A program made the translations under genes and the position numbers. A DNA stretch of 64,000 nt. Source: Vicinamibacterales bacterium (GTDB taxonomy: Bacteria > Acidobacteriota > Vicinamibacteria > Vicinamibacterales > UBA8438). The DNA is taken from assembly GCA_965221595.1 (NCBI GenBank), contig OZ244900.1, positions 2,918,687 to 2,982,686 on the forward strand. Reading direction: 5' to 3'. This document shows, one piece after another, positions 23,225-60,330 of this stretch; positions within the stretch are counted from its first letter, which is position 1, and every line of letters starts with the position of its first letter. Below the pieces are notes generated by a model that saw nothing but the letters and a program-made list of their open reading frames with translations, was not told the DNA's origin and ran no database searches.

Positions 23225-23251
23225 TATTGTAGCGCCCGCTGGCGGCGGGCG

Positions 23252-42833: not shown

Positions 42834-44756
<1,923 letters not shown>

Positions 44757-44807
44757 CGGCCCGTGGTGAAACCCCGCGTTGCACCGAGACAGGCGAGGTC
44801 GCAACGC
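44757..44807. repeat. Partial copy (5' module) of the repeat family, followed by a hairpin
   Basis: GGCCCGTGGTGAAACCCCGCGTTGCACCGAGACAGGCG matches the first ~40 nt of copy B (GCAGCCCGTGGTGAACCCCGCGTCGCACCGAGACGGGCG). GCGTTGC (44776-44782) pairs with GCAACGC (44801-44807). Confidence 0.4.
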
Positions 44808-44812
44808 CGGTC

Positions 44813-46231
44813 ATGACCATCGACCAGCTCATCGACGACACCCTGCGCCCGGTGGCCGACGCCGTCGCGGGCGTGGTCTTCTACGCGCTGCCGCTGCCGG
44901 GCGCCGAGCTGCCGCTCATCGTGGTTTGGCTCGTTGCCGGCGGGCTCTTCTTCACCGTCTATCTCCGCTTCATCAACGTCCGCGGGTTCACCCAGGCACT
45001 GCGCATCGTCTCCGGGCGCTACGCACGCGCCGGCGACCCGGGCGAGATATCCCAGTTCAGTGCGCTGACCACCGCGGTATCCGGCACGGTCGGCATCGGC
45101 AACATGGCCGGCGTGGCCGTCGCCATCTCCACCGGCGGCCCGGGCGCCACGTTCTGGCTCGTCGTCGCCGGCCTGCTCGGCATGTCGGCGAAATTCGCGG
45201 AGTGCACGCTCGGCGTGCTGTACCGGCGGCGCAACCCGGACGGTTCGGTCTCCGGTGGGCCGATGCACTATCTGGAACGCGGTCTCGCTGAGAGGGGCCG
45301 ACCGGTGCTGGGACGCCGACTCGGGGCCTTCTACGCCGCCGCCCTGGTGGTCGGCTGCCTCGGCATCGGCAACATGTTTCAGTCGAACCAGGCCGCGGCG
45401 ATCCTCACGGACATCACCGGCGCGGAGGCCAGCGTCCTCGCCGGCCGCGGCTGGCTCGTCGGCCTGCTGTTGGCGGGGGCGGTGGCACTGGTCATCGTCG
45501 GCGGCATCCGGACGATTGCCAGCACCACCGTCCGGCTGGTGCCGGCCATGGCACTGCTCTACGTGGCGCTGGCGCTGCTGGTCATCGGGCTGAACGCCGG
45601 CAGGCTGCCGGCCGCGGTTGAAGCCATCTGGCAGGGTGCCTTCACCTCGAGCGGGATGGGAGGCGGCGCGCTCGGCGCGCTCGTCATCGGGTTCCGGCGG
45701 GCGGTCTTCTCGAACGAAGCCGGCCTGGGCAGCGCGGCCATCGCCCACGCCACGGCCCGCACCCCGCAGCCAGCCAGCGAGGGCTTCGTCGCGCTGCTCG
45801 AGCCGTTCATCGACACCGTCGTCATCTGCACCATGACCGCTCTGGTCATCACCACCACGGTCTACGATCCGGCGCTCGCCGCGGGCGGCGTGAACGGCAT
45901 CGAGCTGACGACCCGCGCGTTCGCCTCCACCCTGGCCTGGTCGCCGGCGCCGCTGGCGTTCGCCGCGCTCCTGTTCGCGTTCTCGACGATGATCGCCTGG
46001 GCCTACTACGGGCTGAAAGCGTTCACGTATCTGGCTGGCGAGGGCCGCGTCCAGGACCTGGGCTTTAAAATCGTCTTCTGCCTGTTCGTCGTCGCGGGCG
46101 CCGCCGTCGACCTCGGAGCGGTCATCGATCTGTCGGATGCCCTCGTCTTCGTAGTCGCCATTCCGAACCTGCTCGGCCTCTACCTGCTGGCGCCCGTGGT
46201 CAGGCGGGAGCTCGTACGCTACCGGCCTTGA
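44813..46231 (+). CDS. Alanine/glycine:cation symporter (AGCS) family transporter
   Basis: Trimmed to ATG at 44813. AGCS pattern ISQFSALTTAVSGTVGIGNMAGVAVAISTGGPGATFW and FSNEAGLGSAAIAHA. Confidence 0.85.
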   Translation: MTIDQLIDDTLRPVADAVAGVVFYALPLPGAELPLIVVWLVAGGLFFTVYLRFINVRGFTQALRIVSGRYARAGDPGEISQFSALTTAVSGTVGIGNMAGVAVAISTGGPGATFWLVVAGLLGMSAKFAECTLGVLYRRRNPDGSVSGGPMHYLERGLAERGRPVLGRRLGAFYAAALVVGCLGIGNMFQSNQAAAILTDITGAEASVLAGRGWLVGLLLAGAVALVIVGGIRTIASTTVRLVPAMALLYVALALLVIGLNAGRLPAAVEAIWQGAFTSSGMGGGALGALVIGFRRAVFSNEAGLGSAAIAHATARTPQPASEGFVALLEPFIDTVVICTMTALVITTTVYDPALAAGGVNGIELTTRAFASTLAWSPAPLAFAALLFAFSTMIAWAYYGLKAFTYLAGEGRVQDLGFKIVFCLFVVAGAAVDLGAVIDLSDALVFVVAIPNLLGLYLLAPVVRRELVRYRP

Positions 46232-46340
46232 CAACCCGTGGCGCAAGGCCCCGCCGGCCCCGCGGGCTGCCAGGTGTCCGTCGGCCCCGACCCCGCCGGC
46301 ACGCGGGCGCCGGGGTTGATACCATAGGTGGGTTTCTCCG

Positions 46341-47483
46341 ATGCTGAACCCGTTCGACTTCCAACTGCGGACGCGGCTGGTCTTCGGCGCCGGCACCGTC
46401 GAACAGCTCGGCCACATCGCCCGCGAGCTGCGCTTCTCGAAGCCCCTCCTGGTGGCCGACCCCGGGCTGCGCGAGGCCGGGCACGTCGAGCGGGCGCTGC
46501 GCCTGCTGCGCGCCGCGGGTCTCGATCCGGTTCCCTTTCACGACTTCGACGTCAACCCGGACACCGTCATGGTCGAGCGCGGCCGCGCCTTCGCCGCACC
46601 GCACGGCGTGGACTCGATCGTCGGCGTCGGCGGGGGCAGCTCGCTCGACTGCGCCAAGGGCATCAACTTCCTGCTGACCAACGGCGGGGCGCTGGCCGAC
46701 TACCAGGGCTACGGCAAGGCATCGCAGCCGATGTTGCCGATGATCGCGGTGCCGACGACGGCGGGGACCGGGTCGGAAGCCCAGAGCTACGCCGTGATTG
46801 CGAACGCCGAGACCGGCCTGAAGATGGCCTGCGGCGACCCCAAGTGCGCGTTCCGGCTGGCGCTGCTCGACCCGGAGCTGACCCTGTCCCAGCCGGGGGC
46901 CGTGACCAGCGCGGCCGGCTTCGACGCCATCGCGCACGCGGTCGAGACCGCCGTGACCACGCGCCGCACCGCGCTCTCGACGGCCTTCTCGCACGAGGCG
47001 TTCCGTCTGCTGAGCAACAACTTCGAACGCGTCCTGGAGGCGCCGAGCGACGTCGACGCGCGCGCGGCGATGCACCTCGGCGCCGCGTTCGCCGGCATGG
47101 CCATCGAGCAGTCGATGCTGGGCGCCGCCCACGCCTGCGCCAATCCCCTGACCGCGCGCTACGGCATCACGCACGGCGTGGCGCTGGCCATCCTGCTGCC
47201 GCATATCGTGCGCCGCAACGCCGCGGCCGACCAGGACCTGTACGGCCCGCTGGTCACATCGACGATGAACGGGAGTGGCCGGGGGAGCGGCAACCATCTC
47301 GCCGAGCGGCTCGTCCAAATAGGCGAGGCCGGCGGCTTCCCGCACCGGTTGCGCGAGGCGGGCGTGGAGGAAGACGAGCTGGCGGCGCTGGCCGACCAGG
47401 CCGGCCGGCAGTGGACCGCGGCATTCAATCCGGTGCCGTTCGGCCACGTGGACGCTCTGGAGGTGTACCGATGCGCATACTGA
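46341..47483 (+). CDS. Iron-containing (group III) alcohol dehydrogenase
   Basis: 380-aa ORF with motifs GVGGGSSLDCAKG, VPTTAGTGSE, and histidines in AIAHAVE and HACANPL. Confidence 0.85.
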   Translation: MLNPFDFQLRTRLVFGAGTVEQLGHIARELRFSKPLLVADPGLREAGHVERALRLLRAAGLDPVPFHDFDVNPDTVMVERGRAFAAPHGVDSIVGVGGGSSLDCAKGINFLLTNGGALADYQGYGKASQPMLPMIAVPTTAGTGSEAQSYAVIANAETGLKMACGDPKCAFRLALLDPELTLSQPGAVTSAAGFDAIAHAVETAVTTRRTALSTAFSHEAFRLLSNNFERVLEAPSDVDARAAMHLGAAFAGMAIEQSMLGAAHACANPLTARYGITHGVALAILLPHIVRRNAAADQDLYGPLVTSTMNGSGRGSGNHLAERLVQIGEAGGFPHRLREAGVEEDELAALADQAGRQWTAAFNPVPFGHVDALEVYRCAY

Positions 47484-48601
47484 CGAGGGCATCGCTGGCA
47501 GCGGCGGTCGTCCTGCTGCCGGGTTCCCCGGCCGCGGCCCAATCGACCACCGCCGGCCCCGATGCGTGGGCCCAGTTCCGGGGTACGCCCGAGCTCAGCG
47601 GGGCGTCGCTGGCCAGCATCCCCGACGATCTCGAGCTGCTGTGGACCCTCGACGCGGGCGAATCGATAGACTCGTCCGCGGCCATCGCCGACGGCGTGGT
47701 CTACGTCGGGACCTACAGCGGCGAGCTGCTCGCCGTGGATCTCGAGACGGGGGCGGAGCGCTGGCGGTACACGGCCAGCGAGGAGATGGGGATCGGCGAG
47801 TCGTCGCCGGCGGTGAGCCACGGCCTCGTCTTCGTCGGCGATCTCGGCGGCGTCCTGCACGCGGTCGACGCCGCGACAGGCGCGGCGGTTTGGACATACC
47901 AGACCGAAGGCGAGATCAAGTCCTCGCCCGTCGTCTCGGGCGACACGGTGCTGATCGGCTCCTACGACGGCCACCTCTACGGTCTCGCGGCGGCCAGCGG
48001 AGAGTTCCTGTGGCGGCACGAGACGCTCAACTACGTGCACGCCACGCCGGCCGTGGTCGACGGTGTCGCGTACTTCGGAGGCTGCGACGAGATGTTCCGC
48101 GGCGTGCGCGTGTCCGACGGTGAAGAGGTCTTTGCCGTGCCGGCGGGCGCCTACACCGCAGCGTCGCCGACGACGGACGGCGACCGTGCCTACTTCGGCA
48201 CGTTCAACAACGAGGTGATTGGCATCGACCTGGCGTCGCAGGAGTTGCTGTGGCGCTACGAGCATCCGCGGCGGCACTTTCCGTTCTACTCGTCCGCGCT
48301 CAACATCGACGGGACCATCGTGATCGGGGGCCGCGACCGGATGGTGCACGCCATCGACCAGGCGTCCGGCGCGGCGCTGTGGACGTACATGACCCGGGCG
48401 CGCGTCGACTCTTCGCCGGCCGCAGCCGGCGGGCGCGTCTACATCGGCTCGGGCGACGGGCGCCTGTACGTGCTCGACCTGGCCACGGGCGAGAAGCTCT
48501 GGGAGTTCGATACCGGGGCGCCGCTGTCGGCGTCGCCGGCCATCGCCGCCGGCCGGCTCGTGATCGGCTCGCAGGACGGGGTGCTGTACTGTTTCGGCTG
48601 A
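47471..48601 (+). CDS. PQQ-like beta-propeller repeat protein (BamB-like fold), secreted
   Basis: Trimmed to ATG at 47471, overlapping the ADH end. Signal peptide LAAAVVLLPGSPAAAQ. Blade repeats: GAERWRY, GAAVWTY, GEFLWRH, QELLWRY, GAALWTY, GEKLWEF. Confidence 0.7.
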   Translation: MRILTRASLAAAVVLLPGSPAAAQSTTAGPDAWAQFRGTPELSGASLASIPDDLELLWTLDAGESIDSSAAIADGVVYVGTYSGELLAVDLETGAERWRYTASEEMGIGESSPAVSHGLVFVGDLGGVLHAVDAATGAAVWTYQTEGEIKSSPVVSGDTVLIGSYDGHLYGLAAASGEFLWRHETLNYVHATPAVVDGVAYFGGCDEMFRGVRVSDGEEVFAVPAGAYTAASPTTDGDRAYFGTFNNEVIGIDLASQELLWRYEHPRRHFPFYSSALNIDGTIVIGGRDRMVHAIDQASGAALWTYMTRARVDSSPAAAGGRVYIGSGDGRLYVLDLATGEKLWEFDTGAPLSASPAIAAGRLVIGSQDGVLYCFG

Positions 48602-48672
48602 TGCGCAGCCGCCGCGACCGGTGCACCCGCGCCGCCGCCGGGCAGCGCCTGCACCGGCAATCGATGCTGCCG

Positions 48673-48831
48673 GCAGCCCGTGGTGAACCCCGCGTCGCAC
48701 CGAGACGGGCGCTGTGCCTGTCTGCCAAGGCGTGACGAGGGAGCCTATCGGCCATATTCGACCGCGGAGCAACGCCATCAGACGGGATGCATCATCCGTC
48801 GAGTGCAGCGGGGGCTTTTGCCGCCGGCTGC
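48673..48831. repeat. Copy B of the ~160-nt structured intergenic element
   Basis: See copy A. The arms GCAGCCCGTGGT and GCCGCCGGCTGC pair with one mismatch and two G-U pairs. The element ends 10 nt before the radical SAM ATG. Confidence 0.75.
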
Positions 48832-48841
48832 TATAGTAGGC

Positions 48842-50176
48842 ATGATGACCGATGTTTCGCCTCCGGCGACCGCCGTCGAGACGGACGTCGGCAGCTACTT
48901 CGTCGCCAACTACCCGCCGTTCTCGGTCTGGACGTCGGAAGCCGTCGCCGAGGCGGCCCGCCCGGCGCTGGCAACCCCGCCGGCCGACGTGCCGCTCGGC
49001 CTCTACCTGCATATCCCGTTCTGCCGCAAGCGCTGCCACTTCTGCTACTTCCGGGTCTACACCGACCGCAACGCCCGCGAGGTGCAGTCGTACCTCGACG
49101 TGCTGGGCCGCGAGTGGGAGCTCTACGCCACCCAGCCCGCCATTGCCGGACGCCCGCTCGACTTCATCTACTTCGGCGGCGGTACGCCGTCGTTCCTGTC
49201 GGTCCGCCAGCTCCGGGGCCTGGTCGACCGGCTGTCGGCCGTCAGCCCCTGGTCGACCGCCGCCGAGATTACCTTCGAGTGCGAGCCGGGCACGCTCACC
49301 GAACCGAAGCTCGCCGCCATCCGCGAGCTCGGGGTCACGCGCTTGAGCCTCGGCGTCGAGCACTTCGACGACCGCATCCTGGAGCTCAACGGGCGCGCGC
49401 ATCGCTCGGCCGAGATCTTCCGCGCGTACGAGTTCGCGCGCTCGATCGGCTTCCCGCAGATCAACATCGACCTGATTGCCGGCATGCTCGGCGAGACCGA
49501 CTCCCAGTGGCGGGACGCCGTGCAGCGGGTCATCGCGCTCGACCCGGACAGCGTCACCATCTACCAGATGGAGCTGCCGTTCAACACGACGATCAGCGGC
49601 GACAAGCTGAGCGGCGGCGGCCAGTTCCAGGAGACCGTAGCGCCCTGGGCCACCAAGCGCCGCTGGGTGGACGAAGCCTTCGCCGCGCTCGAGCGCGCGG
49701 GCTACGCCATAGGCAGCGCGTACACCGCCGTCAAGGACCCGGCGCGTACCCGGTTCGTCTACCGCGACCGGCTCTGGGAGGGCGCCGACCTGGCGGGGCT
49801 CGGCGTGGCGTCGTTCGGCCACGTCAACGGCGTCCACATGCAGAACCTCGACTCGTGGGGCGCCTACGCCGCAGCGGTCGAGGCCGGCCGCATCCCGCTG
49901 AACCGCGCCTACCGCCCGACGGAGGAGGAGCGCCTCATCCGCGAGCTCGTGCTGCAGCTCAAGCTGGGCTCCATCCGTCCCGCCTACTTCCGGGACAAGT
50001 ACGGCGTCGACCCGCGCGACCGGTTTCCCGGCCAGCTCGCATCGCTCGACCGCGACGGCTACCTGGCCGAAGCGTCGCCGGACGCGGTTCGCCTGTCGCG
50101 CGACGGCCTGCTGCGCGTCGACAGCCTGCTGCCCCGCTTCTTCCTCCCGGCGCACACGGACATCCGCTACACGTAG
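48842..50176 (+). CDS. HemN-like (class C) radical SAM protein, coproporphyrinogen-III oxidase family
   Basis: Trimmed to ATG at 48842. The CX3CX2C motif occurs in LYLHIPFCRKRCHFCYF, with further motifs YFGGGTPS and INIDLIAG, and a HemN_C-like tail. The function cannot be told from sequence alone (HemN/HemW versus methyltransferase type). Confidence 0.8.
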   Translation: MMTDVSPPATAVETDVGSYFVANYPPFSVWTSEAVAEAARPALATPPADVPLGLYLHIPFCRKRCHFCYFRVYTDRNAREVQSYLDVLGREWELYATQPAIAGRPLDFIYFGGGTPSFLSVRQLRGLVDRLSAVSPWSTAAEITFECEPGTLTEPKLAAIRELGVTRLSLGVEHFDDRILELNGRAHRSAEIFRAYEFARSIGFPQINIDLIAGMLGETDSQWRDAVQRVIALDPDSVTIYQMELPFNTTISGDKLSGGGQFQETVAPWATKRRWVDEAFAALERAGYAIGSAYTAVKDPARTRFVYRDRLWEGADLAGLGVASFGHVNGVHMQNLDSWGAYAAAVEAGRIPLNRAYRPTEEERLIRELVLQLKLGSIRPAYFRDKYGVDPRDRFPGQLASLDRDGYLAEASPDAVRLSRDGLLRVDSLLPRFFLPAHTDIRYT

Positions 50177-50425
50177 GTGGTGCGCAAGCAGGCTCGGGAA
50201 CTTTCCGTGGAACTTCAGCGCACCCCCTCCGTGCCGAGTCGAGACGAGGCACTGCGTCGCAATCCGAAGATCGACGTCGCGCTGGTGGCCGCGCACGAGC
50301 GTCTGGAGCACCAGCTCAGACGACTCGGCGTAATAATCAAGCCCGACTACGGCATCGAGCCGCCCTTCGGTCGACGGCCGCGCAGGCTGCACAATCACAG
50401 CCGCCCGATGACGCGCAATTCTTGA
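50177..50425 (+). CDS. Hypothetical 82-aa basic protein (candidate)
   Basis: The GTG start directly follows the radical SAM stop, and the ORF ends 19 nt before the next gene, so it fills what would otherwise be a 268-nt gap in a tightly packed array. Third-position GC is moderate and there are no cysteines. I recognise no homology. Confidence 0.4.
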   Translation: MVRKQARELSVELQRTPSVPSRDEALRRNPKIDVALVAAHERLEHQLRRLGVIIKPDYGIEPPFGRRPRRLHNHSRPMTRNS

Positions 50426-50444
50426 CTGCTGACGACGACTCCAC

Positions 50445-51005
50445 ATGCCGAGGCCCAAGGGAACAACGAGCCGGCGCGGGCCGCTGTATCCGCTCGACCT
50501 GGTCTACCGGCGGGCCGGCATCGCTGTCCCGGCGTTCGAAGTAGTGGCGCCGGACGACATCCCGCTGCCCTACCGCGCGCTGCTGGTGCACGACGCCGAC
50601 ATGACGCTGACCCTCGAACGGCACTTCGGCGGGCGCGTGGTGCTGCGGCCGTTGTCGACCTTCGCGCTGGGCGGCTCGTACTTCCGCCGCGTGCTGCTCG
50701 TGCAGGAGTACGCGGGCCAGCCGGTCGAGATGGGGGCAATCCGGATGGAGCTCGACGCGTTCGATGCGCCGCTGCGCCGGCAGATTCTCGACAACGAGAT
50801 CCCGCTCGGGAGCATCCTGCGCGACGGGCGCTTCGAGTACACCAGCCGTGTCAAGGCGTTCCTGCAACTGCTGCCCAACCCCGAGATGATGGGCGTCTTC
50901 TGGATGCGCGAGCCGCGCGTGCTCTACGGCCGGCGCACCGAGATCGTCCGCCGCGGCCGGAAGATCGGCGACATCGTCGAGGTGCTGCCGCTGGTGATAC
51001 GATGA
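50445..51005 (+). CDS. Chorismate lyase-like (UbiC / DUF98 fold) protein
   Basis: 186-aa ORF whose pattern (LLVHDADMTLTLERHFG, YFRRVLL, IPLGSILRD, YGRRTEI) resembles the Chor_lyase family. The assignment is from memory only. The stop overlaps the next ATG (ATGA). Confidence 0.5.
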   Translation: MPRPKGTTSRRGPLYPLDLVYRRAGIAVPAFEVVAPDDIPLPYRALLVHDADMTLTLERHFGGRVVLRPLSTFALGGSYFRRVLLVQEYAGQPVEMGAIRMELDAFDAPLRRQILDNEIPLGSILRDGRFEYTSRVKAFLQLLPNPEMMGVFWMREPRVLYGRRTEIVRRGRKIGDIVEVLPLVIR

Positions 51006-52327
51006 ACGGGATGGGCACGCGGGGCAACGGCGCGGGGTACGACTGCGTCGTCATCGGCGGCGGACCGGCAGGCAGCACGACGGCGACGGTGCTGGCCCAG
51101 CACGGGCGGCGCGTGCTGCTCCTCGAACGCGAGCCGTTTCCGCGCTACCACATCGGCGAGTCGCTGATGCCGTACACCTGGTTCACCTTCGAGCGGCTGG
51201 GCGTCCTCGACTGGTTCCCGCAAGCGGCGTGCCCCAAGAAGTACTCCGTGCAGTTCGTCTCGACGACGGGCGCGGTCTCGCAGCCGTTCTACTTCTTCGA
51301 GACGATCAAGCACGAGTGCTCCACCACCTGGCAGGTGGTCCGCAGCGACTTCGACCGCATGCTGCTGGAGAACGCCCGCGACAAGGGCGTCGACGTGCGC
51401 CAGGGGGTTGCGGTGCGTGACCTCGTGATGCAGGGCGGCCGGGCGGTGGGGGTGACCGCGGACGTCAAGGGCGGCAGCCGGGAGGAGTTCCGCGCGGACG
51501 CCGTCGTCGATGCCTCGGGACGCGACACGCTGCTGGCCGGGCGGCTGGGTTGGAAGCGGCGCGACCCGGACCTGAACAAGATCGCCATCTTCACCTACTT
51601 CAAGGGTGCGGTACGCGACCCGGGCCTGGACGAGGGGGCCACGACGGTCGCCTACATCCCGGACAAGGGCTGGTTCTGGTACATCCCGCTCCCCGCCGAC
51701 GTGGTCAGCGTCGGCGTCGTGGCCGAGGCCGACTATCTCTATCGCGGCACGCGCGACCCGCGGGCGATCTTCTTCCGCGAGGCGGAAGACTGCCTCTGGA
51801 TTCGCGACCACCTGCGCCCGGCCGAGCACATCGCGCCGGTGCGGGTCACCGGCGAGTTCAGCTACCGCTCGACGGAGATCGGCGGCGACGGCTTCTGTCT
51901 GGCCGGCGACGCGTTCTCCTTTCTCGATCCCGTCTTCTCGACCGGCGTCTTCCTGGCGCTCAAGAGCGGCGAGATGGCCGGCGACGCAATCCACCGCGGC
52001 CTGGACGCGGGCGCCATCAACGCGTCCACGTTCGGGGACTACCGGCGCGACCTCAACTGGGCGCTGGACCAGTTCCGCCGGCTCGTCCTGTCGTTCTATG
52101 ATCAGACGTTCAGCTTCCGGGAATTCGTCAAGGCGCACCCGGATCTGCATCCGCGGCTGGTGGACGCGCTGGTGGGCAATGTCTTCGCCGACCTGCGCGA
52201 GCTGTTCGACGCGCTCGGCCGGTTCGCCGAGCGCTCCCCGCGCGCGGACGGCGCGAGCGACGGCGCATGTCAACCACAGGCTCCGGAACAGACCCCGGCC
52301 ACCCCGTGGTCAGCCGGCACCGGCTGA
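51002..52327 (+). CDS. FAD-dependent oxidoreductase of the flavin-dependent halogenase-like family
   Basis: Motifs GXGXXG (VVIGGGPAGS), FPRYHIGESLMP, WxWxIP (GWFWYIPL, 51671-51688), and FSFLDPVFSTGV. Confidence 0.7.
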   Translation: MNGMGTRGNGAGYDCVVIGGGPAGSTTATVLAQHGRRVLLLEREPFPRYHIGESLMPYTWFTFERLGVLDWFPQAACPKKYSVQFVSTTGAVSQPFYFFETIKHECSTTWQVVRSDFDRMLLENARDKGVDVRQGVAVRDLVMQGGRAVGVTADVKGGSREEFRADAVVDASGRDTLLAGRLGWKRRDPDLNKIAIFTYFKGAVRDPGLDEGATTVAYIPDKGWFWYIPLPADVVSVGVVAEADYLYRGTRDPRAIFFREAEDCLWIRDHLRPAEHIAPVRVTGEFSYRSTEIGGDGFCLAGDAFSFLDPVFSTGVFLALKSGEMAGDAIHRGLDAGAINASTFGDYRRDLNWALDQFRRLVLSFYDQTFSFREFVKAHPDLHPRLVDALVGNVFADLRELFDALGRFAERSPRADGASDGACQPQAPEQTPATPWSAGTG

Positions 52328-52731
52328 GCCGGCGCGTCCAGTTCTACGAGACCGACGCCGCCGGGATCGTCCACTTCAGCTGGTTCTACCGCTACATGGA
52401 AGAGGCCGAGCACGCCCTCTGGCGCGCCGCCGGCCTCAGCATCACCCCGCCGCCCGAAGCCGGCATCGGCTTTCCCCGGGTCGCGGCGTCGTTCGACTTC
52501 CGCCGGCCGCTGCGTTTCGAGGACGAGTTCGAGGTCGAGATTGCCATCGCCGCCATCGGCGAGAAGTCCATCCGCTACAGCGCGCGCGTCGAGAAGGACG
52601 GGACGGTAATCGCCACCGGCAGCCTGACCATCGCCTGCGTGCGCAAGCAGGCCGGCGAGCCCATGCGGGCCACGGCCATACCCGCCGCGATCGCCCGGCG
52701 CCTGCAGGTGGACGGCGCGGCCTCAGCCTGA
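52267..52731 (+). CDS. 4HBT (YbgC/4-hydroxybenzoyl-CoA thioesterase-like) hotdog thioesterase
   Basis: Pattern RVQFYETDAAGIVHFSWFYRYMEEAEHALWR. An alternative GTG start at 52306 would shorten the overlap with the upstream gene. Confidence 0.75.
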   Translation: MSTTGSGTDPGHPVVSRHRLSRRVQFYETDAAGIVHFSWFYRYMEEAEHALWRAAGLSITPPPEAGIGFPRVAASFDFRRPLRFEDEFEVEIAIAAIGEKSIRYSARVEKDGTVIATGSLTIACVRKQAGEPMRATAIPAAIARRLQVDGAASA

Positions 52732-52741
52732 GCGTGAACCG

Positions 52742-54055
52742 ATGCCGGACGAGACGCCGGTCCCGGCCGGCGAACGTCAGCCGCGCGAGGCACTCGCCGC
52801 GCAACAGGCCGAGCGGCTGCGGCAGCTGCTGCGCGCCATCGACGGGCACAACCCGTTCTACACCGCCAAGCTGCGGCAGGGCGGCATCGCGCCGACGGAC
52901 CTCGTCCTGCCCCGCGACCTCGACCGGCTCCCGCTGACCACCAAGGCGGAGCTGGTCGCGGACCAGGACGCGGCGCCGCCGTGGGGCACGGTGCTCACGT
53001 ATCCGCTCGCATGCTACACGCGCTACAACCAGACCTCGTCGACGACGGGGCGCCCGCTCCGGTGGCTCGACACGACGGAGAGCTGGCAGTGGATGCTCGA
53101 CTGCTGGCGGGCCGTGTACCGCGGGGCACGCGTCGGGCCGGACGACCGCATCCTGTTCCCGTTCTCGTTCGGGCCGTTCCTCGGATTCTGGACCGCATTC
53201 GACGCCGGCACCCAGCTCGGCGCCCACTGCGTGCCGGCGGGCGGGATGACGAGCGAGGCGCGCCTGGCCCTGATCGACGTCGTGCGTCCGACGGTAGTCT
53301 GCTGCACGCCGACCTACGCCCTGCGGCTGGTCGAGGTGGCCCGGCAGGTGCGCCGCGCCGCCCCCCCGCTGGCGGATGGCCCGGTGCGCGTGCTGATCGT
53401 GGCGGGCGAGCCGGGCGGCAGCATCCCCGCCACCCGCGCGCAGATCGAGCGGGGCTGGGGAGCGCGCGTCATCGATCACCACGGCCTGACCGAGGTCGGA
53501 CCCGTCAGCTTCGAGTGCTGGGACAACCCGGGGGCCGTGCATCTCAACGAGTGCGAGTACATCGCCGAGGTGCTCGACCCGGACAGCGGACAGCCGGTGC
53601 CAACCGGTGAGCCGGGCGAGCTGGTCCTCACCAACCTGGGCCGCACGGCCAGTCCCCTGATCCGCTATCGGACCGGCGACCTCGTGGTTCTCGATACGGA
53701 CCGCTGCGCCTGCGGCCGGACGCTCGCCCGGCTCGACGGCGGCATCCGCTCCCGCATCGACGACATGGTCCACGTGAGCGGCGTGAACGTCTACCCGGCC
53801 GCCATCGAGTCCGTGGTGCGCGCCGTTGCCGAGGTGGTCGAGTACCGGGCAACCATCGCCCCGCGCGGCGCGCTGCGGGCAGTGACGGTCGAGGTCGAGA
53901 TCGACCCGGCGGTTGCGCGGCCCGAGGCCGTCTGCCGGCGCACCGAGCAGCAGCTGCGGGCAGCGCTGGGCCTGACGGTCCCGGTCACGGCGGTGGCCGC
54001 CGGCAGCCTGCCGCGCTTCGAGATGAAGGCCCGGCGCTGTGTCGTAGTACCATAG
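52742..54055 (+). CDS. Phenylacetate-CoA ligase (PaaK) / F390-synthetase-like adenylating enzyme
   Basis: 437-aa ORF with patterns NPFYTAKL, LPLTTKAEL, YNQTSSTTGRPL, VVCCTPTYALRL, TNLGRTASPLIRYRTGDL. Confidence 0.8.
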   Translation: MPDETPVPAGERQPREALAAQQAERLRQLLRAIDGHNPFYTAKLRQGGIAPTDLVLPRDLDRLPLTTKAELVADQDAAPPWGTVLTYPLACYTRYNQTSSTTGRPLRWLDTTESWQWMLDCWRAVYRGARVGPDDRILFPFSFGPFLGFWTAFDAGTQLGAHCVPAGGMTSEARLALIDVVRPTVVCCTPTYALRLVEVARQVRRAAPPLADGPVRVLIVAGEPGGSIPATRAQIERGWGARVIDHHGLTEVGPVSFECWDNPGAVHLNECEYIAEVLDPDSGQPVPTGEPGELVLTNLGRTASPLIRYRTGDLVVLDTDRCACGRTLARLDGGIRSRIDDMVHVSGVNVYPAAIESVVRAVAEVVEYRATIAPRGALRAVTVEVEIDPAVARPEAVCRRTEQQLRAALGLTVPVTAVAAGSLPRFEMKARRCVVVP

Positions 54056-54061
54056 GCGGAT

Positions 54062-55060
54062 ATGCAACGCCACGTACCGCTCGCCTCACGGCTGCTGCCG
54101 CTTCTCGTCGTGCTCGCGCTGACCGCTGCCTGCGGCGGCGGAGACGCGGGGGACGCCGGCGATGCGCCGCAGCGCCGGTTCCTCAGCATGGGCACCGCAC
54201 CCCCCGGCGGCGCCTTCTTCGTAGTCGGGAGCGCACTCGCGGAGGCGCTCAACGAGACGGCCACGGCGCTCGGCTACAGCGTGACGGCCGAGGCGACGAG
54301 CGGGTCGCAGGAGAACATCCGGCGGCTCGCGAGCGGCGAGCTCGATCTGGCGCTGTCGAACGCGGCCATCACGTACTTCGCCGTGCGCGGGACCGAGGGC
54401 TGGGACCGCGCCTATCCCGTCCGCTCGGTCATGACGCTCGCGCCCAACGTGGCCCTGTTCGTGACGCAGACCTCGTCGGGCATCGCCGCCCTCGACGACC
54501 TGCGCGGACGGCGCGTCACGGTGGGTCCGGCGGGAGCCGGCTTCGAGTACTTCGTGGGGCCGCTGCTCGCAGCGCACGGGGTCACCTACGACGACTTCTC
54601 GCCGCTCAACGCCACGCAGCAGGCGGCCGTCGACATGCTCACGGACGGATCGGCGGACGCGACCTTTCTCGGAGGCGCGGTGCCGACGGCCTCAATCACG
54701 CAGGCGGCGGCCTCGCTGGAGCTGACGTTCATCCCGTTCGGGGAGACGGCGAAGCAACAACTGATCGACGAGTACCTCTTCTTCCGGCCGGCAACCATCC
54801 CGGCCGAGACGTACCGCGGGCAGGCCGAGGCATTCGAAGGACTCGACGTCGGTTCGATGCATCTCATCACGTCGGCCGACGCGCCCGACGACCTGATCTA
54901 CAACACGACCAGGCTGCTGTATGAGAATCAGGCGCTGGTCGTCGAGAAGCACGCAGCCGGGCGGGCGATCAACGCGCGCAATGTCGTGCGCGACACCGGC
55001 ACGCAGTTCCATCCCGCCGCGATTCGCTTCTACCAGGAAGTCGGGATCTGGCCGCAGTAG
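54062..55060 (+). CDS. TAXI family TRAP transporter solute-binding lipoprotein
   Basis: Lipobox LALTAAC. TAXI pattern MGTAPPGGAFFVVGSALAE, SGSQENIRRL, HPAAIRFYQEVG. Confidence 0.85.
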   Translation: MQRHVPLASRLLPLLVVLALTAACGGGDAGDAGDAPQRRFLSMGTAPPGGAFFVVGSALAEALNETATALGYSVTAEATSGSQENIRRLASGELDLALSNAAITYFAVRGTEGWDRAYPVRSVMTLAPNVALFVTQTSSGIAALDDLRGRRVTVGPAGAGFEYFVGPLLAAHGVTYDDFSPLNATQQAAVDMLTDGSADATFLGGAVPTASITQAAASLELTFIPFGETAKQQLIDEYLFFRPATIPAETYRGQAEAFEGLDVGSMHLITSADAPDDLIYNTTRLLYENQALVVEKHAAGRAINARNVVRDTGTQFHPAAIRFYQEVGIWPQ

Positions 55061-55068
55061 GCCGCGCC

Positions 55069-57039
55069 GTGCCTGACACCCGGCCCCCACGTGATCTCAG
55101 GCTGGCAGTGAGCGGCGGGCTCGGCGTGCTGTTGTGCGCCTTCACGCTGCTCGAGGTCAACTACCCGCTGCTGGCCCCGCAGAGCCGCCTCGCCTTCTTC
55201 GCACTGGTGGGGCTGGCGCTCTGCTTCCTCAACATCCCGGCCCACCCCCGGCTGAAGGACCATCCGCGCGCGCGCGCCGGCGATCTTGTGCTGGCGTTCC
55301 TGGCGGTCTGCTGCTGCGGCTACATCGTCGTGCAGACCGACCCGATCTTCGAGGCGTGGTGGATCGATGGGCAGGCGCTCGGCAACCGCGCCGGCTTCGA
55401 GACGGCGCTCGACACCCTGATCGGCCTGGCGGGGCTGCTGCTCGTCGTCGAGGCAGCCCGGCGCGCCCTCGGCTTGGCGCTGCCGCTGCTGGCCGGGGCG
55501 TTCATCCTCTACGCACTGTTCGGCGCCGCGTTTCCGGACTGGCTGTTCCCGCACCGCGGCTACAGCATTCCGCGCGTCGTGGCGCAGACGTTCCTCCACA
55601 GCCAGGGCATCTTCGGTGTGGCGCTGAACGTCATGTTCACGTACGTCTTCCTGTTCGTCATCTTCGGGGCGTTCCTGGAAGCCACCGGCGCGACACGCTT
55701 CATCGTCGACTTCGCACAGCGCGTCTTCGGCCGCAGTTCGGGTGGCCCGGCGAAGGTGGCGGTGCTGAGCAGCGGCCTGATGGGGTCGCTCTCGGGCAGC
55801 GCGGTCGCCAACACGGCCACCACCGGGACGTTCACCATCCCGATGATGCGGAGCGCCGGCTTCCAGCCGGTCACGGCGGCCGGCGTGCAGGCCGCCGCCA
55901 GCTCGGGCGGCGCGCTGATGCCGCCGGTGATGGGCGCGGGCGCGTACATGATGCTCGAGATCGTCGACCCGCCGGTGACGTACCTGGAGATCATCCGGGC
56001 GGCGCTGATCCCGGCCATCCTGTACTACCTGTCGTTGCTGCTCATCGTGCACTTCCACGCCCGGCGGATGTCGATTACGGGGACGGGCGCGCCCGCCGAA
56101 CCGGTCGCCGCACCCGCCGCGACGCGCGACACGCGCGCGGCAGGCATCGTCTTCTTCACCGCGCTGGGCAGCCTCATCCTGTTCCTGATCCTGGGCTATA
56201 CGGCGTTCCGCGCCGTCACGCTCTCGCTGGTCGCCATCGTGCTGGTGAGCAGCATCGACCCGGCCACCCGGCTCGATCCGCGTCGCACCCTCACCGGCCT
56301 CGTCAACGCGGCCCGCGGCGTCGTCCCGCTGGTGGCCGCCGCCGCGTGCGTCGGCATCATCATCGGCATCGTCACGCTGACCGGCGTGGGCACCCGCCTG
56401 CCGGCAACAATCATTCCGCTGGCCGAGCAGAGCCTGTTCCTGGCGCTCGTCCTGATCATGGTGTCGTCGATCATCCTGGGGATGGGACTGCCGTCGGCGG
56501 TCTGCTACCTGCTGATGGCGACGCTCATCGGTCCGGTGCTGGGCAACCTCGGCGTGATCCCGTTGGCGGCGCACCTGTTCATCTTCTACTTCGGAATGAT
56601 GTCGATGGTGACACCGCCGGTGGCGCTCGCCGCCTACGCCGCGTCGTCCATCGCGGGCACGCGCATCATGCCCACCGGCATCGCCGCATTCCGCTTCGCC
56701 CTCGTCGGCTTCACGCTGCCCTACATGTTCATCTACCGGCCGGAGCTGCTGATGCTGACGGCCACGGGCGCGCCGGCCGGACTGCTCGACATGCTGCTCC
56801 CGGTGGCCATCGCCACGCTCGGTGTCACCTGTTTCGCCGCCGGCATCGCGGGTCAGTTCCGCCATCCGCTCACGCTCGGACTGCGGCTGGCAGTCTTCGG
56901 GGCGGCCGGCCTGCTTCTGGCCCCCGGTCCGACCCTGACCGCGGCCGGCGTGGGCGTGCCGGTCTTCGACGTGGCAGGCGTTGCGCTGGCCGGCGCCGTG
57001 CTCGCCGCCAACCGCCCGTCCGGCGCGCTGCGGCGGTAG
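55069..57039 (+). CDS. TRAP transporter fused permease (TAXI-associated 4TM/12TM type)
   Basis: 656-aa polytopic ORF with pattern GPAKVAVLSSGLMGSLSGSAVANTATTGTFTIPMM. Confidence 0.85.
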   Translation: MPDTRPPRDLRLAVSGGLGVLLCAFTLLEVNYPLLAPQSRLAFFALVGLALCFLNIPAHPRLKDHPRARAGDLVLAFLAVCCCGYIVVQTDPIFEAWWIDGQALGNRAGFETALDTLIGLAGLLLVVEAARRALGLALPLLAGAFILYALFGAAFPDWLFPHRGYSIPRVVAQTFLHSQGIFGVALNVMFTYVFLFVIFGAFLEATGATRFIVDFAQRVFGRSSGGPAKVAVLSSGLMGSLSGSAVANTATTGTFTIPMMRSAGFQPVTAAGVQAAASSGGALMPPVMGAGAYMMLEIVDPPVTYLEIIRAALIPAILYYLSLLLIVHFHARRMSITGTGAPAEPVAAPAATRDTRAAGIVFFTALGSLILFLILGYTAFRAVTLSLVAIVLVSSIDPATRLDPRRTLTGLVNAARGVVPLVAAAACVGIIIGIVTLTGVGTRLPATIIPLAEQSLFLALVLIMVSSIILGMGLPSAVCYLLMATLIGPVLGNLGVIPLAAHLFIFYFGMMSMVTPPVALAAYAASSIAGTRIMPTGIAAFRFALVGFTLPYMFIYRPELLMLTATGAPAGLLDMLLPVAIATLGVTCFAAGIAGQFRHPLTLGLRLAVFGAAGLLLAPGPTLTAAGVGVPVFDVAGVALAGAVLAANRPSGALRR

Positions 57040-57066
57040 CCCTGCGGGCGCAGGGATGCCCGCGAC

Positions 57067-58914
<1,848 letters not shown>

Positions 58915-58942
58915 GCGCGGCCCAGCCGCGGCTGTATACTGA

Positions 58943-60268
<1,326 letters not shown>

Positions 60269-60290
60269 CCGCGGCTCTCTGACGGCGACC

Positions 60291-60323
60291 GCGGGGGAAC
60301 CGGCGCGGTCCCGGTCCCCCCGC
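60291..60323. terminator. Hairpin between convergent genes (possible terminator)
   Basis: GCGGGGG (60291-60297) pairs with CCCCCGC (60317-60323), with an inner ACCG/CGGT stem. No clear U-tract. Confidence 0.35.
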
Positions 60324-60330
60324 TCGCTTC

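What the first reader, a model, noticed from the sequence alone, without database searches (positions are those of the whole stretch)
48842..57039. Tightly packed array combining a class C radical SAM, a UbiC-like lyase, a halogenase-like flavoenzyme, a 4HBT thioesterase, a PaaK-like ligase and a TAXI-TRAP transporter
Eight co-directional genes are separated by 0, 19, -4, -61 (or -22), 10, 6 and 8 nt. recQ follows after 27 nt.

The enzyme set points to aromatic-acid handling. A chorismate-lyase-fold protein can make or bind hydroxybenzoate-type acids. A PaaK-type adenylating ligase and a 4-hydroxybenzoyl-CoA-type thioesterase make and break aryl-CoA thioesters. A flavin-dependent halogenase-like enzyme and a HemN-like radical SAM are also present; members of the latter family act as C-methyltransferases in natural-product and methylmenaquinone pathways.

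There is no ketosynthase, NRPS or carrier protein in the array, so it is not a standard aryl-polyene or flexirubin cluster. I do not know of a described pathway with exactly this composition. The fused TAXI-TRAP importer suggests that an imported acid is the substrate.
Basis: partly seen in the sequence, partly recalled or inferred. Interest (0 to 1): 0.65.

Follow-up and report, generated by a model that had tools for sequence, protein, structure and literature searches.

The report
Conserved halogenase–radical SAM aryl-acid operon
This is a real, co-transcribed and widely conserved but uncharacterised gene set in a sponge-associated acidobacterium that most likely makes a halogenated, ring-modified hydroxybenzoate-type acid through a CoA thioester; its product and role are unknown.

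Summary
The window is from a Vicinamibacterales (Acidobacteriota) genome found in sponge-related sequencing runs.

- **Synteny:** 59 of 80 related species keep rSAM, UbiC-fold protein, halogenase, thioesterase, PaaK-type ligase, TAXI and TRAP in this order. RecQ stays adjacent in 5 of 80.
- **Core:** Halogenase, thioesterase and ligase usually accompany them.
- **Fusions:** rSAM+UbiC-fold and UbiC-fold+ligase fusion proteins exist.
- **Add-ons:** TAXI-TRAP is specific to Vicinamibacterales. Other lineages carry a GT4 glycosyltransferase, a MacB-type exporter and a TonB receptor instead. The 82-aa ORF is in about 9 of 80 loci.
- **Enzymes:** The flavoenzyme has every halogenase signature. The 186-aa protein has a chorismate-lyase fold and matching motifs. 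The rSAM fails the HemN, HemW and ChuW thresholds.

Most likely mechanism, largely inferred: chorismate to 4-hydroxybenzoate, then the CoA ester, then halogenation and radical-SAM tailoring, then hydrolysis. A 2026 preprint lists such "Halo_AMP" clusters as orphans.

The parts
46341..47483 (+). Group-III iron alcohol dehydrogenase. It overlaps the propeller start by 13 nt. It is a lineage-specific upstream neighbour, not part of the cross-phylum core.
   Evidence: Best NCBIfam hit is ErcA at 254.6 bits, below the 550 cutoff. It lies upstream of the rSAM in 55 of 70 Vicinamibacterales loci and is absent from the Verrucomicrobiota-type loci.
47471..48601 (+). Secreted PQQ-like / BamB-like eight-bladed beta-propeller of 376 aa. 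It has a signal peptide and no lipobox Cys. It is part of the conserved core; its function is unknown.
   Evidence: Pfam Beta-prop_ACSF4 scores 244.7 (cutoff 133) and PQQ_2 164.9. BamB TIGR03300 scores 153.6, below 285. The start codon was read. It sits directly upstream of the rSAM in 49 of 70 Vicinamibacterales loci and in most Verrucomicrobiota-type loci. In L167 it lies next to the fused rSAM-p186 gene.
48673..48839 (.). Copy of a dispersed, structured intergenic repeat of about 170 nt with inverted termini. It is not part of the pathway.
48842..50176 (+). HemN-like (class C type) radical SAM enzyme of 444 aa. It forms its own orthologue family.
   Evidence: PF04055 scores 81.6. NCBIfam scores are hemN 173.8/325, HutW 165.8/400 and HemW 153.1/205, all below cutoff. 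PDB hits are HemN 1olt (3e-34) and NocN 9p2u (6e-28). It is 54% identical to the Verrucomicrobiota-type orthologue and 25-26% identical to E. coli HemN and HemW. It has CxxxCxxC and GGGTPS but no fourth Cys and no HNxxYW.
50177..50425 (+). Small ORF of 82 aa (conserved part about 69 aa). It is a lineage-specific insert, not core.
   Evidence: No family hit. It is intact and conserved as an ORF in about 9 of 80 loci and absent from the closest relatives. RNA contigs of relatives join 50176 to 50476 without it.
50445..51005 (+). p186: a chorismate-lyase (UbiC / DUF98 / UTRA) fold protein and the putative 4-hydroxybenzoate-forming lyase. Its stop overlaps the halogenase start by 4 nt.
   Evidence: AF2 pLDDT is 89. 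Foldseek top hit is 2nwi DUF98 (TM 0.65-0.78); UbiC scores 0.51-0.60. The profile against PDB gives 2nwi at 4.4e-5. hhalign against E. coli UbiC gives E 2.6e-5 with DxMT, the Arg, PLG and GRR aligned. The family has 1265 clusters at 50% identity. It is fused to the rSAM (P0332) and to the ligase (P0338).
51002..52327 (+). Flavin-dependent halogenase of the phenol/pyrrole 'variant B' type.
   Evidence: PF04820 scores 96.2. PDB hits are 8zop (2e-60), CndH 3e1t, PltA, 5buk/5bva halogenases, ChlB4 and CmlS. It has GGGPAGS, a Lys aligned to CndH K76, WFWYIP and GDAFSFLDPVFSTG. These motifs are conserved in 102 of 103 orthologues across both phyla.
52267..52731 (+). Hotdog-fold acyl/aryl-CoA thioesterase (4HBT / YbgC type). 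An alternative start lies at 52306.
   Evidence: PF13279 scores 57 and PF03061 41.9. PDB hits include 4-hydroxybenzoyl-CoA thioesterase 5wh9 (1e-12) and YbgC. The YETD motif was read.
52742..54055 (+). PaaK-family adenylating CoA ligase.
   Evidence: AMP-binding and AMP-binding_C_2 domains. PaaK TIGR02155 scores 207/646. PDB hits are 2-hydroxyisobutyryl-CoA synthetase 6hdw (6e-55) and PaaK 2y27 (4e-51); the ester-forming PaaK-like enzymes reach only 1e-21.
54062..55060 (+). TAXI-family TRAP solute-binding protein, a probable lipoprotein. It is an add-on specific to Vicinamibacterales.
   Evidence: TIGR02122 scores 243.8 (cutoff 84). It is present in 60 of 80 Vicinamibacterales loci and in none of the Verrucomicrobiota-type loci.
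55069..57039 (+). Fused DctQM-type TRAP permease, the partner of the TAXI protein.
   Evidence: TIGR02123 scores 555.9 (cutoff 320). RNA contigs span the TAXI-TRAP junction.

Best explanation
This is a conserved, co-transcribed biosynthetic operon that tailors a hydroxybenzoate-type aromatic acid on a CoA thioester.

**Proposed steps**
1. The UbiC-fold protein p186 makes 4-hydroxybenzoate, or a close analogue, from chorismate. This is inferred from the fold and the conserved ligand-contact motifs.
2. The PaaK-type ligase converts the acid to its CoA thioester. This is inferred from the family, from the nearest solved relatives being CoA ligases, and from p186-ligase fusions.
3. The flavin-dependent halogenase chlorinates or brominates the activated ring. 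The motifs are shown; the substrate is inferred from relatives that act on thioester-tethered aryl or pyrrolyl groups.
4. The HemN-like radical SAM enzyme works physically with p186, to which it is fused in some genomes. It performs a class-C-type radical modification, most plausibly ring C-methylation. This is the weakest inference.
5. The hotdog thioesterase releases or proof-reads the product.

**Lineage-specific parts.** The TAXI-TRAP pair in Vicinamibacterales probably takes up the acid or a precursor for the same ligase. In other lineages a GT4 glycosyltransferase, a MacB-type ABC exporter and a TonB receptor take its place, which suggests the product is glycosylated and trafficked across the envelope.

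**Open point.** The constant secreted beta-propeller partner has no assigned role.
For: **Synteny**
- 59 of 80 species keep the seven-gene order. Module proteins are as conserved as enolase: medians are 69-81% against 75%.
- The core recurs in Verrucomicrobiota-type loci as propeller-rSAM-p186-FDH-GT4-TE...membrane protein-PaaK.
- It also recurs as one compact operon followed by an ABC/FtsX exporter and a TonB receptor in L170.
- The L069-type loci have GT4, FtsX, propeller, rSAM, p186, TE, membrane protein and PaaK.

**Fusions**
- rSAM+p186: P0332 occurs on 3 contigs, and a second cluster member (P0510, 653 aa) exists.
- p186+PaaK: P0338.

**p186**
- Chorismate-lyase fold, DUF98 profile hit and UbiC alignment.
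- The aligned UbiC positions M34, R76 and L114 are the 4-hydroxybenzoate contacts in the UbiC crystal structures. That assignment is from my own knowledge of the literature.

**Other enzymes**
- Halogenase motifs are present and conserved in 102 of 103 orthologues.
- The ligase is closest to true CoA ligases.
- The thioesterase hits 4-hydroxybenzoyl-CoA thioesterases and YbgC.
- The rSAM is not HemN, HemW or ChuW by curated cutoffs or motifs. It resembles the class C methyltransferase NocN.

**Transcription and precedent**
- RNA contigs span rSAM-p186, FDH-TE, TE-ligase, ligase-TAXI and TAXI-TRAP.
- A chorismate-lyase + halogenase logic has been proposed for dibromo-anisic acid in a planctomycete.
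Against: - No product is known and no enzyme was assayed.
- p186 has no Pfam or NCBIfam hit. The UbiC alignment is weak (probability 75%), and the fold is shared with ligand-binding UTRA domains.
- The most invariant unit is propeller-rSAM-p186. In several Verrucomicrobiota-type loci it is followed by unrelated genes, with no FDH, TE or ligase nearby. p186 may therefore be an accessory subunit of the rSAM rather than the supplier of the ligase substrate.
- Conservation as strong as enolase, together with vertical inheritance, looks more like primary metabolism than a typical natural-product cluster.
- No flavin reductase and no carrier protein are present.
- Seven Vicinamibacterales loci have p186 alone.
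- The role assigned to the rSAM is a guess by family analogy.
Confidence: 0.45

Rival explanations
1. Primary-metabolic module. The propeller-rSAM-p186 core, with the ligase, thioesterase and halogenase as helpers, makes a small aromatic cofactor, prosthetic group or envelope constituent. This product is used by, or delivered to, the periplasmic PQQ-like beta-propeller protein. It would not be a secreted secondary metabolite.
For: - Module proteins evolve as slowly as enolase.
- Order and orientation are kept across two phyla, with 54% rSAM identity.
- The secreted propeller is the most constant neighbour, including beside the fused rSAM-p186 gene.
- The cluster sits among housekeeping genes (recQ, enolase, amino-acid carrier).
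- NCBIfam lists 'acido-empty-quinoprotein' propellers among the weaker hits.
Against: - The propeller is BamB-sized and highly regular (best PDB hits are designed 'Cake' propellers and BamB). It does not resemble a 600-aa PQQ dehydrogenase with a cofactor pocket.
- The halogenase, GT4, exporters and TonB receptor look like secondary metabolism.
- Seven of 80 species show p186 without the rest.
- There is no direct evidence of any cofactor.
Confidence: 0.2
2. One reading: a salvage or catabolic route for an imported aromatic acid. TAXI-TRAP imports it, the PaaK-type ligase activates it, and the other enzymes transform or degrade the CoA ester.
For: - TRAP systems are importers.
- TAXI and the permease directly follow the ligase (gaps of 6 and 8 nt), are co-transcribed, and are kept in about 60 of 80 Vicinamibacterales loci.
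- In other lineages a membrane protein also sits next to the ligase: v181, and a cation/proton-antiporter-family protein.
- PaaK plus a hotdog thioesterase is the pairing found in the phenylacetate catabolic pathway (own knowledge).
Against: - TAXI-TRAP is absent from all Verrucomicrobiota-type loci and from the L069-type loci.
- MacB-type exporters accompany the module elsewhere.
- There are no ring-cleavage, reductase or beta-oxidation genes.
- Flavin halogenases with intact motifs are anabolic tailoring enzymes.
- A chorismate-lyase-type protein, fused to the ligase in some genomes, provides an internal source of the acid.
Confidence: 0.15
3. Not one pathway. The rSAM is simply the housekeeping HemN or HemW of these bacteria, and the neighbours are unrelated genes held together by phylogenetic inertia.
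For: - Sources name the protein 'coproporphyrinogen III oxidase family'.
- The HemW model score is the closest to its cutoff. It reaches 180/205 for the Verrucomicrobiota-type orthologue.
Against: - All HemN, HemW, HemZ and ChuW cutoffs are failed.
- HemN's fourth Cys and the HNxxYW motif are absent.
- Gene fusions to p186 exist.
- Adjacency is kept across phyla while true housekeeping neighbours (recQ, enolase) are not.
Confidence: 0.05
4. RiPP-type system. The 82-aa ORF after the rSAM is a precursor peptide modified by the rSAM and by a QhpG/LodB-like flavoenzyme.
For: - A small ORF lies directly after a radical SAM gene (gap 0).
- The flavoenzyme gives sub-threshold hits to the peptide-modifying QhpG, LodB and GoxB.
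Against: - The ORF is absent from about 70 of 80 related loci, from all Verrucomicrobiota-type loci, and from transcripts of relatives.
- The flavoenzyme has halogenase motifs and much stronger halogenase hits.
Confidence: 0.03

Closest known systems
'Halo_AMP' orphan gene clusters of sponge microbiomes (bioRxiv 10.64898/2026.08.03.742642)
   Same: These clusters pair a flavin-dependent halogenase with a PaaK/BagE/YtkN-like adenylating enzyme. They frequently carry PQQ-like domain genes, rSAM, thioesterase, GT and TonB genes. 16% of the families come from Acidobacteriota. All are uncharacterised and none matches MIBiG.
   Different: That survey defines the class by two domains only. It focuses on a P450-containing family (CC A), which the window lacks. 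It does not recognise the UbiC-fold protein, the propeller-rSAM-p186 core, the fusions, or the presence of the module in Verrucomicrobiota-type metagenome loci. Whether this exact cluster is in their set was not checked, because the figures and tables were not readable here.
Chorismate lyase + halogenase routes to halogenated 4-hydroxybenzoate derivatives: BaaA/BaaB for dibromo-p-anisic acid, Bmp5/Bmp6, and ambigol Ab5-Ab10
   Same: A UbiC-like lyase sits next to a flavin halogenase. In ambigol biosynthesis the acid is adenylated, halogenated as a thioester and released. The Baa and Bmp details come; the ambigol details come from my own knowledge.
   Different: BaaB and Bmp5 are single-component Bmp5-type enzymes acting on the free acid. 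Ambigol uses a carrier protein. Here there is no carrier protein; instead there is a CoA ligase plus a CoA thioesterase, an extra HemN-like rSAM, and a secreted propeller. The Baa assignment itself is unverified.
E. coli UbiC, M. tuberculosis Rv2949c, and DUF98 (AF1396, PDB 2nwi)
   Same: They share the fold (TM 0.5-0.78). The DxMT, Arg, PLG and GRR motifs align with UbiC. The size is similar, about 165-200 aa.
   Different: There is no hit to the curated Pfam or NCBIfam models and identity is about 15-20%. p186 is always partnered with a HemN-like rSAM, unlike UbiC, which pairs with UbiA.
Class C (HemN-like) radical SAM enzymes: HemN, HemW, ChuW/HutW, NosN/NocN, MenK/MqnK
   Same: It aligns to HemN over its full length. 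It has CxxxCxxC, GGGTPS and a weak HemN_C domain. NosN and NocN act on aryl thioesters (own knowledge).
   Different: It falls below every curated cutoff. It is 25-26% identical to E. coli HemN and HemW, and it lacks HemN's fourth Cys and the HNxxYW motif. No phylogeny against MenK, MqnK or NosN was possible here.
PaaK/PaaI of phenylacetate catabolism, and the FlxY ligase/halogenase/4HBT genes of flexirubin clusters
   Same: A PaaK-family ligase is paired with a hotdog thioesterase. The solved protein 3nix (Flavoprotein/dehydrogenase), which from my own memory is Bacteroidota flexirubin-type, is among the relatives.
   Different: PaaK scores 207/646 and FlxY 129/520, so it is not an equivalog of either. 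The array has no ketosynthase, ACP, ring epoxidase or polyene machinery.

Membership tests
HemN (coproporphyrinogen III dehydrogenase) | Score at or above the curated equivalog cutoff of TIGR00538, and the CxxxCxxCxC motif with a fourth Cys | tested here: not met
   The score is 173.8 bits against a cutoff of 324.95. The motif reads CRKRCHFCYF, with no fourth Cys, where E. coli HemN has CHKLCYFCGC.
HemW (heme chaperone) | Score at or above the TIGR00539 cutoff, a length of about 380 aa without the HemN N-terminal extension, and the HNxxYW motif | tested here: not met
   The score is 153.1 against 205.4. The protein is 444 aa with a HemN-like N-terminus. The motif position reads YRDRLW where E. 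coli HemW has HNLNYW.
ChuW/HutW anaerobic heme-degrading methyltransferase | Score at or above the TIGR04107 cutoff | tested here: not met
   165.8 against 400.
Radical SAM superfamily, HemN-like (class C) architecture | CxxxCxxC cluster motif, GGGTP SAM motif, and a full-length HemN-type alignment | tested here: met
   PF04055 scores 81.6 against a cutoff of 29.5. The alignment to the hemN model covers positions 20-427 of 454. The motifs were seen.
Class C radical SAM methyltransferases (NosN/NocN, MenK/MqnK) | Methyl transfer using two SAM molecules (5'-dA + SAH formed), or clade membership in a phylogeny | not testable with these tools
   Only similarity to NocN 9p2u is available (6e-28, residues 49-259). 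No reference set for a tree was on hand.
Chorismate pyruvate-lyase (UbiC / Rv2949c-DUF98) | Hit to the curated family HMMs | tested here: not met
   No Pfam or NCBIfam family at E <= 0.01.
Chorismate pyruvate-lyase (UbiC / Rv2949c-DUF98) | Chorismate-lyase fold, with the product-contacting Met, Arg and Leu(PLG) positions conserved | tested here: met
   Foldseek gives 2nwi at TM 0.65-0.78 and UbiC at 0.51-0.60. The profile hits 2nwi at E 4.4e-5. hhalign to E. coli UbiC gives E 2.6e-5 with DxMT, R81, PLG and GRR aligned. R81, P120 and G122 are invariant across 40 diverse members, and M53 and L121 are nearly so.
Chorismate pyruvate-lyase (UbiC / Rv2949c-DUF98) | Catalysis of chorismate to 4-hydroxybenzoate + pyruvate | not testable with these tools
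   Needs an enzyme assay.
Flavin-dependent halogenase | GxGxxG motif, catalytic Lys, WxWxIP motif, and a PF04820 score above cutoff | tested here: met
   PF04820 scores 96.2 against 21. GGGPAGS, a Lys aligned to CndH K76, WFWYIP and GDAFSFLDPVFSTG are present. These are conserved in 102 of 103 orthologues.
PaaK (phenylacetate-CoA ligase equivalog) | Score at or above the TIGR02155 cutoff | tested here: not met
   207.4 against 646.3. Family-level membership is met: AMP-binding scores 65.4 and AMP-binding_C_2 55.1.
4HBT/YbgC hotdog thioesterases | Pfam 4HBT_2 or 4HBT above cutoff, and an N-terminal catalytic Asp motif | tested here: met
   PF13279 scores 57 against 25.5. The motif reads 'YETDAAGIVH'. 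The YbgC/FadM subfamily model TIGR00051 scores 57.2, below 68.7, so that subfamily is not met.
TAXI-TRAP transporter | TAXI solute-binding protein plus a fused DctQM permease above the curated cutoffs, with the two genes adjacent | tested here: met
   TIGR02122 scores 243.8 against 84.35 and TIGR02123 scores 555.9 against 320.65. The gap between the genes is 8 nt.
Flexirubin / aryl-polyene clusters | Ketosynthase and ACP genes, and a FlxY equivalog | tested here: not met
   No KS or PP-binding domain is present in the array. FlxY scores 129.1 against 520.
'Halo_AMP' pseudoclass (2026 preprint) | A flavin-dependent halogenase and an AMP-binding enzyme in one cluster | tested here: met
   Both are present within 1.7 kb. 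The rule is described.

The most novel reading that the evidence does not exclude
The invariant trio is a secreted PQQ-like beta-propeller, a HemN-like radical SAM and a UbiC-fold protein. It is helped by a CoA ligase, a thioesterase and a halogenase. In this reading it is an ancient, vertically inherited pathway of two abundant environmental phyla. It would build a previously unknown, sometimes halogenated, chorismate-derived small molecule with a physiological role. That role could be a cofactor or ligand of the periplasmic propeller, or an envelope or signalling compound that is exported and re-imported. It would not be an ordinary antibiotic-type natural product.
Probability: 0.12. Interest if true: 0.85.

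Novelty: new variant of a known kind. Interest (0 to 1): 0.55.

Why it matters
Vicinamibacterales and Verrucomicrobiota are abundant in sponges, soils and waters. A halogenase-containing operon that they conserve as tightly as enolase would be a widespread, unrecognised source of organohalogen or aryl-acid metabolites.

The module also offers three enzymological points of interest:
- a HemN-like radical SAM family of unknown chemistry with a defined partner protein;
- a CoA-based rather than carrier-protein-based route for a 'variant B' halogenase;
- a recurrent link to a secreted PQQ-like propeller, a feature the 2026 sponge survey flagged as puzzling.

The gene fusions and the compact operon in L170 give a clear minimal gene set for heterologous expression.

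Tried and rejected
- **Single-sequence PDB search with p186:** no meaningful hit. A family profile was needed.
- **Metagenome scan with the broad alignment A4:** it failed because no stretch was conserved enough. It was repeated with the closer alignment A5.
- **Promoter and terminator scan of 46000-60500:** nothing above the shuffled expectation.
- **Rfam scan of 46000-58000 at E <= 1:** no match. No riboswitch explains the RNA pile-up upstream of the rSAM, which turned out to be a multi-copy repeat.
- **v181 (the protein before the ligase in the Verrucomicrobiota-type loci) as a p186 paralogue:** rejected. It is a small multi-pass membrane protein.
- **The p186+4HBT 'fusion' P0281:** its contig shows truncated genes, so it is probably a frameshift artefact and was not used as evidence.
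- **GT4 or FtsX orthologues in the 64-kb window:** none found.
- **The RiPP reading of the 82-aa ORF:** rejected.
- **Locus L169:** p186-like and rSAM genes inside an NRPS/PKS-type cluster. This is a different context and was not pursued.
- **Literature searches:** searches for the gene combination and for flexirubin with a HemN-like gene found no described pathway.
- **Fe-ADH upstream:** generic, with no link to shikimate-pathway DHQS-like enzymes.

Full report
**Observation**

- rSAM 48842-50176
- an 82-aa ORF 50177-50425
- a 186-aa protein (p186) 50445-51005
- a flavoenzyme 51002-52327
- a thioesterase 52267/52306-52731
- a ligase 52742-54055
- TAXI 54062-55060
- a fused TRAP permease 55069-57039
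- recQ 57067-58914

The spacings are 0, 19, -4, -61 (or -22), 10, 6, 8 and 27 nt. Pfam and NCBIfam give these assignments:
- a HemN-like radical SAM
- a Trp_halogenase-family flavoenzyme
- a 4HBT_2 hotdog thioesterase
- a PaaK-family ligase
- a TAXI protein and a fused TRAP permease, both above curated cutoffs
- RecQ

The 82-aa ORF and p186 have no family hit.

**Source and synteny**

p186 has 967 close homologues, mostly unnamed; some are called 'chorismate-pyruvate lyase' by JGI. A scan of one genome per species returned 80 loci, nearly all titled Vicinamibacterales, Vicinamibacteria or Acidobacteria.

tblastn of the window's proteins on these loci shows the following:
- 59 of 80 have rSAM, p186, flavoenzyme, thioesterase, ligase, TAXI and TRAP in the same order. 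Most of the rest are cut by contig ends.
- Five loci have rSAM-p186-TE-(membrane protein)-ligase without the halogenase or TRAP.
- Seven loci have p186 alone.
- RecQ is adjacent in only 5 of 80 and enolase in 19 of 80, so the array is not simply frozen gene order.
- Median identities to the window are 69-81% for module proteins and 75% for enolase in the same loci.

The window DNA itself is held at 98% in two runs. Relatives appear in sponge and coral-reef metagenomes.

Sponge metatranscriptome contigs at 85-95% identity cover every gene. They span the FDH-TE, TE-ligase, ligase-TAXI and TAXI-TRAP junctions. They also span the rSAM-p186 junction in a form that lacks the 82-aa ORF region. Two caveats apply: these are contigs of relatives, and DNA carry-over is possible.

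**Beyond the order**

A full HMMER search found 1265 clusters (at 50% identity) of p186 relatives. Among them are a 613-aa protein with a HemN-like rSAM followed by a p186 domain (P0332) and a 613-aa protein with p186 followed by a PaaK-type ligase (P0338). Both occur on several contigs.

Distant members are named Verrucomicrobia in NCBI records. Their loci read propeller - rSAM - p186 - halogenase - GT4 glycosyltransferase - thioesterase. A small membrane protein and a PaaK-type ligase lie adjacent or a few kb away.

- **L170** is a compact operon: propeller-rSAM-p186-FDH-GT4-TE-membrane protein-ligase. An ABC ATPase, a MacB-like FtsX permease and a TonB-dependent receptor follow it.
- **L167** has the fused rSAM-p186 gene next to a propeller and a thioesterase.
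- **L069-type Vicinamibacterales** have GT4 (40% identical to the GT4 of the Verrucomicrobiota-type loci), FtsX/MacB, propeller, rSAM, p186, TE, a Na_H_Exchanger-family protein, ligase and a second propeller.

In some Verrucomicrobiota-type loci only propeller-rSAM-p186 are together, followed by unrelated genes.

The window has the propeller at 47471-48601. It has a signal peptide and no lipobox. Propellers lie directly upstream of the rSAM in 49 of 70 Vicinamibacterales loci and a few kb upstream in about a dozen more.

The picture is therefore layered:
- The invariant core is propeller + rSAM + p186.
- Halogenase, thioesterase and ligase are usual companions.
- Transport and glycosylation genes are lineage-specific.
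- TAXI-TRAP belongs to the last category.

**The individual proteins**

*p186.*
- The AlphaFold2 model has pLDDT 89.
- Foldseek finds AF1396/DUF98 (2nwi, TM 0.65-0.78) first, then GntR-type UTRA domains and E. coli chorismate lyase (TM 0.51-0.60).
- A family profile hits 2nwi by sequence at E 4.4e-5.
- hhalign against the annotated E. coli UbiC gives E 2.6e-5 and probability 75%.
- That alignment places DxMT, the Arg of 'YWLRE', 'PLG' and 'GRR' on invariant or near-invariant p186 positions.
- From the UbiC crystal-structure literature (own knowledge), M34, R76, L114 and E155 contact the bound 4-hydroxybenzoate.

So the 'UbiC-like' call is supported at fold and motif level, though not by curated HMMs.

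*Flavoenzyme.*
- The best solved relatives are halogenases: 8zop 2e-60, CndH, PltA, ChlB4 and CmlS.
- The alignments show GGGPAGS, a Lys aligned with CndH K76, WFWYIP and GDAFSFLDPVFSTG.
- These motifs are kept in 102 of 103 orthologues of both phyla.

*rSAM.*
- It aligns along the whole HemN model but fails every curated cutoff: HemN 174/325, HutW 166/400, HemZ 160/321, HemW 153/205.
- It is 25-26% identical to E. coli HemN and HemW.
- It lacks HemN's fourth Cys and the HNxxYW motif.
- It is 54% identical to the Verrucomicrobiota-type orthologue.
- It resembles the class C methyltransferase NocN.

*Ligase.* It is closest to genuine CoA ligases: 2-hydroxyisobutyryl-CoA synthetase at 6e-55 and PaaK at 4e-51. 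It is far from the ester-forming PaaK-like enzymes, which reach 1e-21.

*Thioesterase.* It hits 4-hydroxybenzoyl-CoA thioesterase and YbgC structures.

*82-aa ORF.* It is an intact, conserved ORF in about 9 of 80 loci and is missing from the closest relatives. It is a lineage-specific insert.

**Mechanism**

The reading best supported by these results has five steps:
1. p186 supplies a 4-hydroxybenzoate-type acid from chorismate.
2. The ligase makes the CoA ester.
3. The halogenase acts on the thioester, like its CndH, PltA and ChlB4 relatives, but with CoA instead of a carrier protein.
4. The rSAM, acting with p186, adds a radical modification, most plausibly C-methylation.
5. The thioesterase releases or proof-reads the product.

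What is shown: the gene content, order, conservation, fusions, fold, motifs and transcription. What is inferred: every substrate and reaction.

TAXI-TRAP would feed the acid or a precursor from outside in Vicinamibacterales. GT4, MacB and TonB genes elsewhere suggest glycosylation and trafficking.

Two facts keep my confidence at about 0.45. First, the module is conserved like primary metabolism. Second, the constant trio is propeller-rSAM-p186 rather than lyase-ligase-halogenase.

**Comparison with what is known**

No curated family covers the rSAM, p186 or the small membrane protein. Literature searches for the combination found nothing.

The nearest published description is a 2026 preprint that defines 'Halo_AMP' clusters in sponge microbiomes. 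These pair an FDH with a PaaK-like adenylating enzyme and frequently carry PQQ-like, rSAM, TE, GT and TonB genes. 16% of the families are acidobacterial, and all are orphans.

The nearest mechanistic precedents are lyase + halogenase routes to halogenated hydroxybenzoates:
- Baa and Bmp
- ambigol (own knowledge)

They differ in halogenase type or in using a carrier protein, and they lack the rSAM and the propeller.

I therefore rate this as a new variant of a known kind, already sighted in a survey but unexplained.

**Seen in passing**

A structured repeat of about 170 nt with inverted termini lies in the propeller-rSAM gap (48673-48839). It has a second copy at 23065-23232. Copies sit at different intergenic places of the same operon in other species.

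Noticed in passing
window 48673-48839; second copy 23065-23232; partial copy 44756-44795: This is a dispersed intergenic repeat of about 170 nt with inverted termini (CTAGCAGCCCGTGG...CCACGGGCTGCTAG). It folds into a long hairpin of 52 pairs, 15 of them with compensatory changes. It has no Rfam match. Copies lie at different intergenic positions of the same operon in other Vicinamibacterales (L066, L051, L004), in either orientation. Many DNA and RNA contigs pile up on it. It looks like a REP/MITE-like element or an unknown structured RNA.
   Followed up: partly
window 50177-50425: The small ORF (conserved core about 69 aa, ending ...HNHSRxMTRNS) is present between the rSAM and p186 in only about 9 of 80 related loci. 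In L001 it sits beside an NfeD/SDH-protease-like gene. It has no family hit and its function is unknown.
   Followed up: partly
window 46341-47483: An iron-type alcohol dehydrogenase overlaps the propeller start by 13 nt. It lies upstream of the rSAM in 55 of 70 Vicinamibacterales loci but not in the Verrucomicrobiota-type loci. Its best, sub-threshold NCBIfam hit is ErcA, a regulator-like ADH.
   Followed up: partly
L002/L045, L044, L046, L049, L055, L067, L072: Seven loci carry a p186 orthologue (72-75% identical) with none of the other module genes within 10 kb. Six are titled Vicinamibacterales and one (L072) is titled Latescibacterota. In L002 it follows a GT4 glycosyltransferase and lies among other GT4 genes. 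Whether the rest of the module lies elsewhere in those genomes is unknown.
   Followed up: no
L085 17062-17607; L170 6126-6674: A conserved protein of about 180 aa, apparently multi-pass membrane and with no Pfam or NCBIfam family, sits immediately before the PaaK-type ligase and overlaps its start. It is seen in the Verrucomicrobiota-type loci and is unrelated to p186.
   Followed up: partly
L169 8956-11784: A p186-like protein preceded by a 314-aa radical SAM gene sits inside an NRPS/PKS-type cluster with a B12-rSAM, a carbamoyltransferase, a GT2 and an AMP-PP-KS protein. The rSAM + UbiC-fold pair has therefore also been recruited into a classical secondary-metabolite cluster.
   Followed up: no
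window 48983-49066: Many unrelated contigs match this stretch, which encodes the HIPFCRKRCHFCYF cluster motif of the rSAM. The samples therefore hold many HemN-like paralogues. Depth here is not a measure of this gene's expression.
   Followed up: no
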